From an uncultured Poribacteria bacterium (GTDB lineage Bacteria > Poribacteria > WGA-4E > WGA-3G), in contig OX638351.1 in the NCBI GenBank assembly GCA_951813565.1, positions 224,001 through 288,000 of the forward strand: 64,000 nucleotides of DNA, in the 5' to 3' direction. This document shows positions 4,250 through 24,236 of this stretch, one piece after another (within the stretch, counting starts at the first letter, position 1; each line of letters opens with the position of its first letter). The position numbers and the translations under genes were made by a program. The notes beneath the pieces are model-generated. The model was given only the letters and a program-made list of their open reading frames with translations. It had not been told where the DNA came from and ran no database searches.

Positions 4250-4326
4250 GTTATTAGCACTCCCCGTCAAACCCCCTGCCTTTAGGTAGGGGATGTAGAC
4301 GGCTAAAAACTTGATAAAAAATATAT

Positions 4327-4355
4327 TTGACAATCTAATCAAAATATGGTATAAT
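4327..4355 (+). promoter_or_regulatory. sigma70 promoter of tnpA-tnpB
   Basis: TTGACA-17 bp-TATAAT with extended TG; perfect consensus. Confidence 0.75.
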
Positions 4356-4388
4356 ATATCATATACTGTAATGAAAAGGTAAGATATT

Positions 4389-4808
4389 ATGCCACTAAAA
4401 ATCGCTAATAAGAAACGTAATTACAAAACAAGCAACAGGACAGTCTATAGTTGCCAATATCACGTTATCTGGTGTACGAAGTATAGGCGTAAGGTTTTGG
4501 AGACACAAATACAAGGTAGACTGAAACAACTCATAGAAGAAAAACAAGACGAGTATGAGTATCAAATCCGTGAGGTTGAAACACAACCTGAACATGTCCA
4601 TTTGCTCATAGAAATCCCGCCAATGCATTCTATTGATAAAATCGTTGGAAAAATCAAAGGCTATACGGCTAAAGTTTTACGTGAAGAATACCCAAGTTTG
4701 AAAAGTCGTTTGCCCTCTCTTTGGACACGGAGCAAGTTTGTGAGTTCCTGTGGTGGTGTAACACTTCAAGTGATAAAAGACTATATTGAAGGTCAAAGTG
4801 GACAATGA
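4389..4808 (+). CDS. tnpA: IS200/IS605 Y1 HUH transposase TnpA
   Basis: YHVIWCTKYRRKVL, HVH (HUH), LWTRS, YIEGQ catalytic Tyr. Confidence 0.96.
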   Translation: MPLKIANKKRNYKTSNRTVYSCQYHVIWCTKYRRKVLETQIQGRLKQLIEEKQDEYEYQIREVETQPEHVHLLIEIPPMHSIDKIVGKIKGYTAKVLREEYPSLKSRLPSLWTRSKFVSSCGGVTLQVIKDYIEGQSGQ

Positions 4809-5917
4809 GAAAAGCTCACAAGTTCAAACTTCAACACCAATCTAACACAATCAAACTTGGTAATATGCTTGATGATATGTGGCAAATCCATGTGCATATC
4901 ATGCGTTTGGCACGTAGGTATTATCGCATGTTCGGCAAAAATTTGTCTGCGTATCGTCTGAAGGCACATGTTGCGAAACTCAAAAAGCGGACAAAACCGC
5001 ATTGGGCAGACTTGCCGAGTCAAGTTGTGCAAGACGTTGTCCTACGTTATGGTAAATCACAAGACGCATTTTTCCAAAATATAGCAAGCCGCAAATCAGG
5101 TAAAACAACGCGTAAAGTGGGTAGACCGAAAATCAAACCGAGACACAAATACAACTCCATGACCTTCACACAAGCGGGCTACAAACTTGAAGGGAACCGT
5201 ATCAAAATCAACTGTATAGATACATGGTTTTCCTACCACAAACACCGTGATTTCAAAGGAACTATCAAGACAATCACAATCAAACGTGACAGGTGCGGTG
5301 ACTATTGGATATGCTTTTCGTGCGAGAATGTTGACGATCCCGAACCCAAACCCAAGACAGGTAAGAGCGCAGGATTTGATTACGGAAACAAAACATTCCT
5401 CACAAGCGACGAAGGGGACACAATAGAATCCCCGCAGTTTTTCAAACAATCACTCAACACGTTGCGATCTCTCAACAAAGCACTCAGTCGTAAAGTCAAA
5501 GGTTCTAACAACTATTATCGTGCGTGCCGTGCTTTAGCAAGACAACACAGAAAAGTTGCCAGACAAAGAGAAGATTGGCAGTGGAAACTGACTGACCAAC
5601 TTTGCACGGAGTTTGATACACTCTACTTTGAAACTTTGAACCTTGATGGTATGAAACGGCTTTGGGGACGTAAAGTTTCTGACCATTCTTTCTACCAGTT
5701 TCTTCAGATATTGGAACAGAAGTGTGCGAAGCACGGCAAAAAACTTGTGCAAATCTCGCAATGGATAGCAACAACAAAACCTTGTAGTGATTGTGGATAC
5801 CATAACAAAGAACTCTCTCTTTCTGATAGGCAGTGGACCTGTTCCGAATGTGGTTCACACCACGACAGAGACACCAACGCTGCTATCAATATCAAACGGG
5901 CAGGCTTGGCTGCCTAA
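4805..5917 (+). CDS. tnpB: RNA-guided endonuclease TnpB
   Basis: RuvC GFDYG / FETL / DRDTNAA; Zn finger CSDC..CSEC; all catalytic acidic residues present. Confidence 0.95.
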   Translation: MRKAHKFKLQHQSNTIKLGNMLDDMWQIHVHIMRLARRYYRMFGKNLSAYRLKAHVAKLKKRTKPHWADLPSQVVQDVVLRYGKSQDAFFQNIASRKSGKTTRKVGRPKIKPRHKYNSMTFTQAGYKLEGNRIKINCIDTWFSYHKHRDFKGTIKTITIKRDRCGDYWICFSCENVDDPEPKPKTGKSAGFDYGNKTFLTSDEGDTIESPQFFKQSLNTLRSLNKALSRKVKGSNNYYRACRALARQHRKVARQREDWQWKLTDQLCTEFDTLYFETLNLDGMKRLWGRKVSDHSFYQFLQILEQKCAKHGKKLVQISQWIATTKPCSDCGYHNKELSLSDRQWTCSECGSHHDRDTNAAINIKRAGLAA

Positions 5918-6029
5918 AGTGGAGCGACAATAAGACGGTGGACGCTAAGCGAAAACCGCAGTCGCAAGGAAGCACAAGCCCCTACCTTTAGGTAGTGGGT
6001 ACCTATGACGTGGGCAGAACTAATCGATT
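5894..6029 (+). ncRNA. predicted TnpB omegaRNA (scaffold to 6009, guide from the 3' flank)
   Basis: Position over the tnpB 3' end and right end matches known TnpB reRNA layout; 5894-6009 is the block retained in the mini-element. Confidence 0.7.
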
Positions 6030-17889: not shown

Positions 17890-18022
17890 TCCAATGCTTT
17901 CTTCCTGTGAATCAACGCTGAATGCGCTTATGGCATTCAGCGGGAGCGAGCTCCAGCCCGCGACTTTTATTTATTAACGCACTGTACATGATGTTTCACA
18001 TCAATTAGTGAATGGGAACACA

Positions 18023-18496
18023 ATGAAACAAATCCCAAACAGAGGACATCGTCAATTACGAAAAGGCAGATACTCATTACCCGGGGCTTACTATTTCCTG
18101 ACTTTATCCATTATTAACAAAGAACCTATTCTTGCAAATGCCGAGATTGCGGATACTATTTTTGAATCTTTTGAATGGTTAGAATCTAATGAGCGTCTCA
18201 GATGTTTTTGTGTTATTGTGATGCCTAACCATATCCATGCTGTCATCCAATTAAGAAGCGAACAAACCTTATCCAGACTCATGCAATCGTTCAAAAGTTT
18301 CACAGCGAAGCAGATTAACACACAATTAGGACGAAGCGGATCTGTCTGGCAAGAGACTTATTATGAACATGGAATAAGACGAAATGGATCGTTGAATGAA
18401 ACCATTCGATATTGTTATGAAAATCCTGTGAGGAAGGGATTAGTAAAGGAAGCACAGGAGTATCCGTATTGGAGATGTAAGTTCAGGATGGAATGA
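18023..18496 (+). CDS. rayT: REP-associated tyrosine transposase (RAYT)
   Basis: LRKGRYS.PG..YFLT, MPNHIH (HUH), FKSFTA, WQ..YYEH.IR, Y..ENPV.KGL; flanked by inverted REPs. Confidence 0.92.
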   Translation: MKQIPNRGHRQLRKGRYSLPGAYYFLTLSIINKEPILANAEIADTIFESFEWLESNERLRCFCVIVMPNHIHAVIQLRSEQTLSRLMQSFKSFTAKQINTQLGRSGSVWQETYYEHGIRRNGSLNETIRYCYENPVRKGLVKEAQEYPYWRCKFRME

Positions 18497-18501
18497 TGGG
18501 A

Positions 18502-18830
18502 GTCGCGAGCTGGAGCTCGCTCCTACAGGAAGACGGAAAGAGGTCGCGAGCTGGAGGTTGTTCTTACAAGAAAAAGACGGAAGAGGTCGCGAGCTGGAGG
18601 TTGTTCCTACAAGAAAAAGACGGAAGAGGTCGCGAGCTGGAGGTTGTTCCTACAAGAAAAAGACGGAAAGAGGTCGCGAGCTGGAGGTTGTTCTTACAAG
18701 AAAAAGACGGAAGAGTCGCGAGCTGGAGCTCGCTCCTACAGGAAGACGGAAAGAGGTCGCGAGCTGGAGGTTGTTCCTACAAGAAAAAGACGGAAGAGGT
18801 CGCGAGCTGGAGCTCGCTCCTACAGGAAGA
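18502..18830 (-). repeat. tandem array of 8 REP units (41-44 bp)
   Basis: Units start at 18502, 18543, 18586, 18629, 18673, 18715, 18756, 18799; minus strand GTAGGAGCGAGCTCCAGCTCGCGAC (type A) or GTA(G/A)GAACAACCTCCAGCTCGCGAC (type B). Confidence 0.95.
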
Positions 18831-18845
18831 GCATATAAACAAAAC

Positions 18846-18874
18846 TTGACCAAAAACTGAATATTTGATATAAT
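18846..18874 (+). promoter_or_regulatory. sigma70-like promoter of the ABC genes
   Basis: TTGACC-17 bp-TATAAT with extended TG. Confidence 0.6.
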
Positions 18875-22109: not shown

Positions 22110-22928
22110 TTAACGCGTTGTTTTGAGATGACCCCATGTCGTTGTTGCTTTTCCAGCAGGTTCAACGGGGGTAGCTACATCAGTCTGTTGTGAGATAAAG
22201 TCAATCATCTCAATGAGTATTTGACCGCGAGGGAGGGTTCCGTTGTTTCCCTCCTGCATACAAATACCAACACGACCACTGCTATTGTTCAACTTGATGA
22301 TACCCGGGTCAAAGAATCCGGCACCGTTATCTCCAAAAGCGGCTTCAACGCTCCAGGGATCAACAATCTGATCACTTTTGAACGGTCGGTTAGAGGTATA
22401 ATCTACCAATGAAGGTGTGTATTTTTTTCCCACGTCAGTCGGTGTAATCTGCGTTCCATCACCCCACATATCAGCATTGATATTGATTATGGTCTTCAAC
22501 CCATTCTCGCCGTTTGCACCACCACCTTCAGTAACATAGAAGATGTAATCACAACAATTCAGAATGATATTGCCGCCGTAGAGGAACCTTTCAGCAATAG
22601 AATCGTCAACTTGCGAATTTCCTGGGGTGTAAAGCGTTGTTGGGAACCATCCAAAAATGATGAGAATGTCTGCCACACCATCGTCAATACGTTCTTCTGC
22701 ATACGGACCGATTTCAGCATCGGTTTTATAAACAACTTCGCCAACAGAAGGTACGTCATTTTTCAGGTTGTCAAAGACAATTTTGCGCTGAATATCACCA
22801 TTCTCTTGTGAAATCCATCCCACGCCTTCGCTAAAAATCGCAACATCACCGAGCGCTGCCCAACTTGATGCCGTAACAGTAAAGGCAAACAAGATAATAA
22901 ATAAGATTAACAATTGTCTCATTTTCAT
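22110..22928 (-). CDS. secreted hypothetical protein (paralog of 23418-24236)
   Basis: Signal peptide; C-terminal PVEPAGKATTTWGHLK; AAGGAG RBS. Confidence 0.85.
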   Translation of the reverse strand: MKMRQLLILFIILFAFTVTASSWAALGDVAIFSEGVGWISQENGDIQRKIVFDNLKNDVPSVGEVVYKTDAEIGPYAEERIDDGVADILIIFGWFPTTLYTPGNSQVDDSIAERFLYGGNIILNCCDYIFYVTEGGGANGENGLKTIININADMWGDGTQITPTDVGKKYTPSLVDYTSNRPFKSDQIVDPWSVEAAFGDNGAGFFDPGIIKLNNSSGRVGICMQEGNNGTLPRGQILIEMIDFISQQTDVATPVEPAGKATTTWGHLKTTR

Positions 22929-23008
22929 TTTTTTCTCCTTTTAGATTTGACTCAATTGATCAATGATCTGTAGGGATGTGCCGTTTGTTACGTCCCTACA
23001 GATACAAG

Positions 23009-23417
23009 GTCATAGGTACCCACTACCTAAAGGTAGGGGCTTGTGCTTCCTCGCGACTGCGGTTTTCGCTTAGCGTCCACCGTCTTAGTGTCGCTCCACT
23101 TTAGGCAGCCAAGCCTGCCCGTTTTATTTATTTTTCGCAATGTCGTGGGTTGGCTCTGTTTCCACCCATTTTATAGCTGCCCTTTCTACCAGGCACGCCA
23201 CGCGACAAGTCCTTAGACTTCGGGAGGGGTTGCCTCCGCTCACGCATTCCAGTCTGCAGTGCTGCAGTGGCTTGATATGGACGCTATCCACCAACTTTAT
23301 AGATTTCGTTATAGCGATGGGTTTTATTCCGCTTTCGCTGGACATTTTGTGATGTCCATCACATTGTTAGCCGTCTACATTCCACAAGCTAAAGCATGGG
23401 GATTTGACGGGGGAGTG
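23009..23417 (-). mobile_element. non-autonomous IS605 derivative (both ends, omegaRNA region and structured cargo)
   Basis: 23009-23124 is the reverse complement of 5894-6009 with 2 mismatches; left end resembles 4258-4306. Confidence 0.9.
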
Positions 23418-24236
23418 TTAAAAATCAGATTTGATATGTGCCCACGTGGTAGTAACTTTTTCATTGGGATCGACTGCTGCTGCACCGAGAGCGTCAGCCA
23501 AATAATTATCAATCATTTCGGCGAAGACCTCACCCCGTGGAAGTCCGTCATTACCAGATATTTGATAAGCGATGCCGATTCGCCCATCGGTTTTTGTGTC
23601 GTGAACAATGACTGGATCCAGGAGTCCGGCACCATTATCCCCGAAAACAACCTCAACTTCCCATGGATCAACAATCTGAGCTGCCTTGAATGTACGTGCT
23701 GAGGTAAAAGCAGCAAGACTGGGTGTATATTTCTTACCGTCGTCTGTTGGTTTGATGGCGGTACCATCTGCCCACATGTCGGCATTGATGTCCATCATAT
23801 TTTTCAAGCCTTGTTCGCCGTTGGTACCAGCACCATGCACCACGTAAAAGATATAATCCGCCGTGTTCAGGAAGATATTTCCGCCTTCAAGGAATGTCTC
23901 GGCCACAGAATCGTCAGGTTTCCCATTACCGGGTGGATAGAGTGTCGCTGGAAAGTCACCAAAGGTAACGATAATATCCGCTTGACCGTTGTCGGTGTGG
24001 TCTTCTGCCCATGACTCAATTTCTTTTTCGGTTAATGTGACAACCTTTTTGGGCTTCTTGAGAAGTTCAGCCAATTCTTCTCCTTCTCTTACTGCGGCGG
24101 GTTGTCCCATCCAGCCGGCTCGTTCAGTATAGATTGCAACTTCTCCGAGGGGCGCGGCTACGCTTATAGTCGGGGTTATGGCTATCGCAACAAAATACCC
24201 GACGGCGAATGCCGTAAAAATAATCAATTTTTTCAT
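23418..24236 (-). CDS. secreted hypothetical protein (paralog of 22110-22928)
   Basis: Signal peptide; shared blocks GGNI.LN..DYIFYV, INADMW.DGT, GKKYTPSL; C-terminal AVDPNEKVTTTWAHIK. Confidence 0.85.
   Translation of the reverse strand: MKKLIIFTAFAVGYFVAIAITPTISVAAPLGEVAIYTERAGWMGQPAAVREGEELAELLKKPKKVVTLTEKEIESWAEDHTDNGQADIIVTFGDFPATLYPPGNGKPDDSVAETFLEGGNIFLNTADYIFYVVHGAGTNGEQGLKNMMDINADMWADGTAIKPTDDGKKYTPSLAAFTSARTFKAAQIVDPWEVEVVFGDNGAGLLDPVIVHDTKTDGRIGIAYQISGNDGLPRGEVFAEMIDNYLADALGAAAVDPNEKVTTTWAHIKSDF

What the first reader, a model, noticed from the sequence alone, without database searches (positions are those of the whole stretch)
23125..23368. ~240-nt structured cargo in the mini-IS605, fused upstream of the omegaRNA
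The cargo is not derived from the tnpA/tnpB in this window. On the minus strand it shows nested complementary segments: CAATGT/ACATTG enclosing it, ACCCAT/ATGGGT, CGCTAT/ATAGCG, GCCAC/GTGGC around TGCAG/CTGCA and AGACT/AGTCT, GGAG/CTCC, TGCC/GGCA, GGGT.G/C.ACCC, plus mutually exclusive TGTGATG/CATCACA vs TGGACAT/ATGTCCA. This looks like a multi-domain ncRNA (ribozyme, processing or regulatory module) carried by an RNA-guided element. Pairings were found by eye only.
Basis: inference. Interest (0 to 1): 0.7.

Follow-up and report, generated by a model that had tools for sequence, protein, structure and literature searches.

The report
Folded RNA riding a mini-transposon
A small gene-less jumping element in sponge-symbiont bacteria carries a conserved, intricately folded RNA of no catalogued family directly in front of its guide RNA, where related elements have a promoter and a nuclease gene; what the RNA does is untested.

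Summary
The 244-nt cargo is real. It lies in a 409-bp gene-less IS605-type element (23009-23417, minus strand), between the left end and an intact TnpB omegaRNA. The genome holds 8 near-identical copies, 1 deleted copy and 4 longer variants.

A covariance model finds it in 27 of 151 Poribacteria genomes, all of one family. Pattern scans found none elsewhere, and Rfam has no match.

A 55-pair structure with pseudoknots is 97.7% paired, with 16 compensated pairs (shuffled 7.7). It holds on 12 new sequences (95.3%, 15 versus 8.1).

The cargo is not coding, not from tnpA/tnpB, and fails tests for group I, group II, known small ribozymes and IsrB omegaRNA. These elements lack the internal promoter (2 of 63 versus 47 of 58) and lie co-oriented with upstream host genes (44 of 56 versus 38 of 79), so they appear to depend on host transcription.

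Best guess (0.4): a module that defines and protects the guide RNA inside host transcripts. A new ribozyme is possible (0.2). Earlier scan notes describe similar promoter-bearing leader RNAs on other Poribacteria DNA; two sequence look-ups found none for this cargo.

The parts
23418..23421 (-). Transposon-adjacent motif TTAA; it contains the stop codon of the upstream gene
23369..23417 (-). IS605-type left end hairpin; no promoter follows it
23125..23368 (-). Structured cargo RNA, type A, 244 nt
23340..23362 (-). 5' domain: hairpin P2 whose loop CAC can pair with the upstream GUG (pseudoknot; near-invariant, one compensated case)
23314..23338 (-). P3: covarying stem with a GAAAG/CAUC-type internal loop and a variable hairpin
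23277..23291 (-). P5 hairpin with a conserved NAGCR loop
23249..23270 (-). P6, variable hairpin, missing in some members
23236..23245 (-). Conserved core (GYGAGCGG-like) with no settled partner
23207..23236 (-). P8 (insertion-prone; about 70 nt longer in type B) and P9 (UACG loop in 12 of the 26 members parsed)
23135..23205 (-). 3' domain: closing stem P10, hairpin P11 with conserved GGUA loop, and an H-type pseudoknot (23146-23177); present in all types
23009..23124 (-). Last codons of tnpB, omegaRNA scaffold and right end (ends TGAC); 97% identical to that of the tnpA-tnpB element in this window
22989..23008 (-). Flanking DNA that would serve as the guide (inferred)
   Evidence: inference from TnpB biology (PMC10055086 passages)
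23418..24236 (-). Upstream host gene, 272 aa, no Pfam match; likely source of read-through transcription
22110..22928 (-). Downstream co-oriented paralog, 272 aa, 50% identical
4258..6009 (+). Autonomous tnpA (Y1)-tnpB element with the same ends; candidate helper in trans

Best explanation
The element is a non-autonomous IS605 derivative in which a folded RNA module replaced the promoter, tnpA and all but the last codons of tnpB. Shown: the module is a conserved non-coding structure on the element's sense strand; it sits against the 5' edge of a TnpB omegaRNA in the members read; and its carriers lack an internal promoter and are found in the sense direction of host transcription. Inferred: the element is transcribed as part of a host mRNA, and the compact pseudoknotted module marks and shields the 5' side of the omegaRNA. 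It would stall 5'-to-3' decay (the host encodes RNase J) and stand in for the ribosomes that cover tnpB mRNA, so that a stable guide RNA survives to load TnpB made elsewhere. That guide would let the copy be restored after excision.
For: Covariation: (the last is fitted to the model). G-U cells 78 against A-C cells 12 fix the strand. Cargo identity 0.79 against omegaRNA 0.78 and flank 0.40 in 14 lineages. Internal promoter-like site in 2 of 63 cargo insertions against 47 of 58 tnpB elements. Upstream ORF co-oriented in 44 of 56 against 38 of 79 promoter-bearing elements, p 3.6e-4; antisense to both neighbours in 1 of 45 against 14 of 65, p 0.004. The same bias is reported for IscB, which needs outside transcription, and is absent for TnpB (PMC10055086 passages). 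The cargo is absent from 80 tnpB loci and occurs with several different end types. Contigs from two RNA libraries of one study span the whole element while this locus's neighbouring genes are uncovered. RNase J is encoded, and viral xrRNAs block RNase J1 (PMC5760640 passages).
Against: There is no direct test of function, and no RNA ends or strand, because only contigs were available and DNA may be present. The orientation bias would also arise if only the omegaRNA needed transcription. A passive shield does not need about 240 nt with 72 near-invariant positions. Promoter-bearing minis carry other structured RNAs (types D and E), and one divergent cargo member has its own promoter, so the module is not simply a promoter substitute. 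The 5' domain is replaced in some members. Enrichment just behind a host promoter was not significant (13 of 63 against 5 of 58, p 0.08). The mean folding z is modest.
Confidence: 0.4

Rival explanations
1. The cargo is a ribozyme of a new class that cuts, caps or circularises the transcript to release the omegaRNA from the host mRNA, as HDV-like ribozymes do for promoterless R2 retrotransposons (analogy recalled, from no call).
For: Promoterless and co-transcribed. Invariant unpaired core and loops among variable peripheral hairpins, with two or more pseudoknots. IS605 elements have captured a ribozyme before (IStrons).
Against: No known catalytic motif in 38 members and no HDV-like topology. 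Library contigs span the element uncut (weak). Several copies sit just ahead of the start of genes resembling metK, minD and a ribosomal protein gene (named by eye), where cleavage would cut the host mRNA.
Confidence: 0.2
2. The cargo is an anti-polarity or antitermination RNA that keeps transcription running through an untranslated 400-570 nt insertion, so that insertions in leaders and operons are tolerated.
For: 35 of 45 cargo insertions with both neighbours called lie between two co-oriented genes, and several lie a few codons' length ahead of a start codon.
Against: Minis with their own promoter also carry structured RNAs. No likeness to a known antiterminator in Rfam.
Confidence: 0.15
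3. The cargo is an independent RNA passenger, with its own protein or RNA partner (decoy, antitoxin-like or scaffold), that uses the transposon ends as a vehicle.
For: Homologous cargo occurs with several different left and right ends. The 5' domain occurs alone in two genomes. At least three different RNA cargoes occupy the same slot.
Against: The full cargo was not seen away from the omegaRNA in the loci read, and no partner gene is linked.
Confidence: 0.15
4. The structure acts in the single-stranded DNA circle (for example in priming second-strand synthesis or protecting it), not as RNA.
For: The supported strand is also the strand read from left end to right end; DNA-parameter folding gives a similar mean z (-1.5).
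Against: Many G-U pairs and UACG/GAAA tetraloop exchange are RNA-like (loop preference recalled). A DNA role does not explain the bias to host transcription direction seen only in promoterless elements.
Confidence: 0.05
5. The cargo is a diverged remnant of a known RNA (IsrB omegaRNA or group I intron).
For: Three short collinear motifs resemble Poribacteria IsrB-type omegaRNAs by eye.
Against: A profile of 18 such omegaRNAs scores 0 of 38 cargo sequences above 0 bits. Their covariance model scores best at the transposon end hairpins and gives nothing above about 9 bits that touches a cargo. R1 gives no hit better than E 0.23 in 29 IscB/IsrB-type loci. There is no RF00028 match in the genome.
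Confidence: 0.05

Closest known systems
PATEs / standalone omegaRNA elements of IS200/IS605 (PMC10055086 and PMC10691335, passages read)
   Same: Gene-less, multicopy, conserved left and right ends, intact omegaRNA expected to work in trans with TnpB and TnpA from sister elements.
   Different: Carries a 235-330 nt conserved foreign RNA between the ends, has no promoter, and shows the host-orientation bias reported for IscB rather than TnpB.
IStrons (group I intron IA2 fused to IS605/IS607; PMC4227781 abstract, bioRxiv 2023.11.20.567912 and PMC13565253 passages)
   Same: A large structured RNA inside an IS605 element, 5' of the TnpB/omegaRNA part, in one transcript.
   Different: No group I match or P7-type motifs. 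The ends do not fit splice sites (5' flank TTAA/TTAG in type A; 3' end TGAC or TCAA, not G). Only 3 of 61 insertions clearly break a reading frame.
IsrB/IscB omegaRNA (HEARO, RF02033)
   Same: Pseudoknotted 200-300 nt RNA next to an IS200/IS605 end hairpin, dependent on outside transcription.
   Different: It follows the left end on the top strand, has no linked IsrB/IscB gene and shows no profile similarity.
Viral exoribonuclease-resistant RNAs (xrRNA; PMC5760640 passages)
   Same: Proposed way of working only: a pseudoknotted fold that protects a downstream RNA from 5'-to-3' decay.
   Different: No sequence or model match, a bacterial mobile element, much larger, and resistance untested.

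Membership tests
PATE / standalone omegaRNA element (IS605) | Left-end hairpin after a T-rich motif and right end shared with autonomous elements | tested here: met
PATE / standalone omegaRNA element (IS605) | No protein gene; several copies at unrelated sites | tested here: met
   8 full copies with different flanks; indels between anchors in all three classes mod 3
PATE / standalone omegaRNA element (IS605) | Mobilised by TnpA and loaded on TnpB in trans | not testable with these tools
   helpers present: 5 tnpA matches and 29 tnpB-linked type A right ends in the genome
IStron / group I intron | Match to group I model; P7/P3 core motifs | tested here: not met
   R-like motif in 4 of 38 and S-like motif in 1 of 38 (motifs recalled)
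IStron / group I intron | Splice sites at the element boundaries (U before, G last) | tested here: not met
   type A follows TTAA/TTAG and ends TGAC; type B follows TTAT and ends TCAA; IStron rule from PMC13565253 passage
IStron / group I intron | Silent insertion inside genes | tested here: not met
   4 of 61 sites have open frames of 60 or more codons on both sides and 1 more runs in from upstream; of these 5, 3 are in frame
Group II intron | Domain V/VI | tested here: not met
   no RF00029 match in the genome; 0 of 38 by motif
Known small self-cleaving ribozymes (hammerhead, HDV-like, twister, pistol, glmS) | Family core motifs or model match | tested here: not met
   Rfam to E 10 and E 5; 0 of 38 for each recalled motif and for a relaxed HDV descriptor
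Any ribozyme | Catalysis | not testable with these tools
   needs in vitro assay
IsrB/IscB omegaRNA (HEARO) | Profile match and position upstream of an RRXRR gene | tested here: not met
xrRNA | Blocks a 5'-to-3' exoribonuclease through its fold | not testable with these tools
   only the host's RNase J gene was shown
Protein-coding remnant | Conserved reading frame | tested here: not met
   anchor-to-anchor length mod 3 is 0, 1, 2 in 9, 7, 8 of 24 members, although many single members have one long open antisense frame

The most novel reading that the evidence does not exclude
The cargo is the first member of a new class of large catalytic RNA that a promoterless RNA-guided transposon uses to cut or cap its guide RNA out of host transcripts: a second kind of ribozyme-transposon fusion after IStrons, and one of several interchangeable RNA modules in these elements.
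Probability: 0.2. Interest if true: 0.9.

Novelty: new variant of a known kind. Interest (0 to 1): 0.68.

Why it matters
Standalone omegaRNA elements are known, but a 2023 survey calls their biological role unknown (PMC10691335 passage), and how a gene-less copy makes a usable guide is open. This family offers a concrete, testable answer: a conserved RNA module plus host read-through. It also adds an uncatalogued multi-pseudoknot RNA with a covariation-backed model that is ready for cleavage, SHAPE and cryo-EM work. If it protects or releases guides, it could be a natural part for expressing TnpB guides from ordinary mRNAs. If it is catalytic, it would be a new ribozyme class.

Tried and rejected
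Rfam: no match at gathering scores in the whole window, and only weak partial hits outside the cargo at relaxed E-values.

Outside Poribacteria: fixed-pattern scans of genome, metagenome and viral collections gave Poribacteria records, two unnamed metagenome contigs that are close type A copies, and chance hits that R1 rejected (best outside hit 17 bits, no pairing by eye). BLAST of phage and plasmid collections found nothing. These scans need exact motifs, so distant relatives can be missed. No model search was run outside the phylum.

Structure alternatives: a long-range UYG/CGA helix holds in type A but fails in types B and C. It is among the 55 pairs counted and is uncertain. A core-to-P10 helix and a CC/GG pseudoknot with the P11 loop are compatible with the data but unproven. 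A group I P7 reading of AGACU/AGUCU was rejected because the local P9 hairpin shows double changes.

Splicing: one RNA-library joint skips 317 nt from the left end to the right-end hairpin, but the bases between are unknown and tiny end-only elements exist as DNA, so it is not counted.

IsrB origin was rejected. The HMM output was invalid and was redone. Kinship with RNA types D and E: similar P3-like modules by eye, but no significant score. Enrichment behind host promoters was not significant.

Literature searches that found no description of this RNA: (open-access library only). No supplements were read; supplementary motif tables of RNA-discovery or TnpB surveys could list it.

Full report
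Host and element. Records holding close homologs are labelled Candidatus Poribacteria, so I take the window to be from that group. The stretch lies in a 409-bp element on the minus strand (23009-23417). It begins after TTAA, which contains the stop codon of a 272-aa gene, and it sits 80 bp before a co-oriented paralog. Its ends match the tnpA-tnpB element at 4258-6009, whose TnpB keeps the three acidic RuvC residues by eye. The genome holds 8 full copies at 92-100% identity with unrelated flanks, one copy with a 46-nt core deletion, and 4 longer type B variants with different ends. In types A and B the cargo stops at the last few codons of tnpB, where the omegaRNA's first hairpin starts (read).

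Distribution. BLAST found it in 12 of 36 same-genus genomes and in 0 of 24 from other families of the order. Model R1, built from 23 type A sequences, found it in 27 of 151 phylum genomes: 26 of 99 others in the family (two genera) and 0 of 51 outside it. These genomes are a sample and some are incomplete. Pattern scans of all three collections found no member outside this group. Members fall into type A (about 235-260 nt), type B (about 320 nt, with an insertion in P8) and divergent forms with a replaced 5' or middle domain, carried by several left-end types.

Structure. I fixed a 55-pair model from alignment A1. On that plain alignment it is 97.7% paired with 16 compensated pairs, against 7.7 +/- 1.6 in shuffles (0 of 500); slid controls are 31-40% paired. 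On 12 sequences fetched afterwards plus the reference it is 95.3% paired with 15 compensated pairs against 8.1 (0 of 500). The tool warns that relatedness inflates some measures, but the count of compensated pairs is the one it says is rarely fooled. The fold is: a 5' pseudoknot with P2, then P3, P5 with a conserved loop, an optional P6, an unpaired conserved core, P8, P9, and a closed 3' domain with hairpin P11 and an H-type pseudoknot. The pseudoknot's second stem is well compensated. Its first stem has fewer changes (2 cells in A1, none in A4, and more by eye in types B and C). G-U cells outnumber A-C cells 78 to 12. Against this, single-sequence folding is only modestly better than chance on average, and DNA parameters give a similar value.

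It is not coding. Many members have one long open antisense frame, but lengths between conserved anchors fall in all three classes mod 3. It is as conserved as the omegaRNA (0.79 against 0.78; flank 0.40; 14 lineages).

Dependence on host transcription. A promoter-like site follows the left end in 2 of 63 cargo insertions, in 47 of 58 tnpB elements (58 of the 80 loci could be parsed), in 17 of 20 type D and in 6 of 6 type E minis. The upstream ORF is co-oriented in 44 of 56 cargo insertions with a called ORF (7 had none), against 38 of 79 promoter-bearing elements (5 had none), p 3.6e-4. Only 1 of 45 is antisense to both neighbours, against 14 of 65. ORF calling was crude and the controls come partly from other genomes. 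The same contrast is reported between IscB and TnpB (PMC10055086, passages). Of 61 sites, 3 break a reading frame in frame and several lie just ahead of a start codon. In RNA libraries, single contigs from two runs of one study span the whole element with other flanks, while this locus's genes are uncovered. A third run also covers only the element's 6 of 30 bins, and a fourth covers 26 of 30. Contigs show neither strand nor ends, and DNA may be present.

Known families. Rfam has no match. Group I, group II, small ribozyme and IsrB omegaRNA tests fail. IStrons are the nearest precedent for a large RNA inside an IS605 element (PMC4227781, abstract and outline; PMC13565253 and bioRxiv 2023.11.20.567912, passages), but the boundaries and insertion pattern differ. 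Standalone omegaRNAs are described as of unknown role (PMC10691335, passages). A paper on circular archaeal omegaRNAs was seen only in a listing (PMC12558985). Nine searches found no description of this RNA; subscription journals and supplements were not covered.

A wider pattern. The same slot holds two other conserved RNAs in promoter-bearing minis: type D (matches in 40 of 112 family genomes) and type E (38 of 112). R1 does not score them, though D's 3' module resembles P3 by eye. Earlier notes of this scan describe pseudoknotted leaders on Poribacteria tnpB transcripts and on gene-less minis. I did not test whether they are D or E. R1's failure on 80 tnpB loci argues that this cargo is a different family, and sequence look-ups with types A, B and E returned nothing.

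Mechanism. Shown: a conserved folded non-coding module fused 5' of an omegaRNA in promoterless elements that sit in the direction of host transcription. Inferred: it defines and protects the guide RNA within host transcripts (0.4). RNase J is encoded, and folded viral RNAs can block it (PMC5760640, passages). Rivals are a new ribozyme (0.2), an anti-polarity RNA (0.15), an independent passenger (0.15), a single-stranded DNA role (0.05) and a remnant of a known RNA (0.05).

Verdict: a real and apparently undescribed structured RNA in a known kind of element; interest 0.68.

Noticed in passing
G000:C1:2117805-2118212 (L357) and 4 identical copies; relative at 5295840-5296151 (L359): Gene-less IS605 minis with an internal promoter and a different conserved structured RNA (type D) before the omegaRNA; matches in 40 of 112 family genomes, with both type A and type B ends; no credible Rfam match.
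   Followed up: partly
G000:C1:963518-963958 (L358): A third cargo (type E) with a promoter and a pseudoknotted 5' domain by eye; matches in 38 of 112 family genomes.
   Followed up: partly
L182:9497-14982 (G023): CRISPR array of 73 spacers beside cas genes that look type I-D by eye, with no reverse transcriptase evident; one 40-nt spacer matches the type B cargo core 40 of 40 in the own-genome copy L055. It suggests these elements travel on invading DNA.
   Followed up: partly
L036 and L042: Type A elements inserted inside type D elements; L022 holds a type A and a type B element in tandem.
   Followed up: no
G000:C1:2994597-2996918 (L006, L075): A type A cargo carries a type B left end and the same upstream flank as a type B element 2 kb away, which points to recombination between elements.
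   Followed up: no
L063:1425-1631 and L064: A 207-bp unit, 98% identical in two genomes, holds only the cargo's 5' domain without transposon ends.
   Followed up: partly
L085, L051, L039: Three cargo elements lie in frame inside reading frames; for L085 both halves match one homolog in the own genome. These are sites where splicing could be tested.
   Followed up: partly
L416-L438: RRXRR-domain genes (IsrB-sized and IscB-sized) in 74 of 112 family genomes; the IsrB-sized ones have a compact omegaRNA-like region of about 200 nt upstream.
   Followed up: partly
G000:C1:918764 and 363628: Tiny end-only elements made of a fused left and right end hairpin.
   Followed up: no
window 22971-23004: A short palindromic repeat directly after the right end overlaps the would-be guide.
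   Followed up: no
window 18493-18860: Tandem array of short repeats after a Y1-transposase-like ORF at 18008-18496; possibly a REP/RAYT locus.
   Followed up: no
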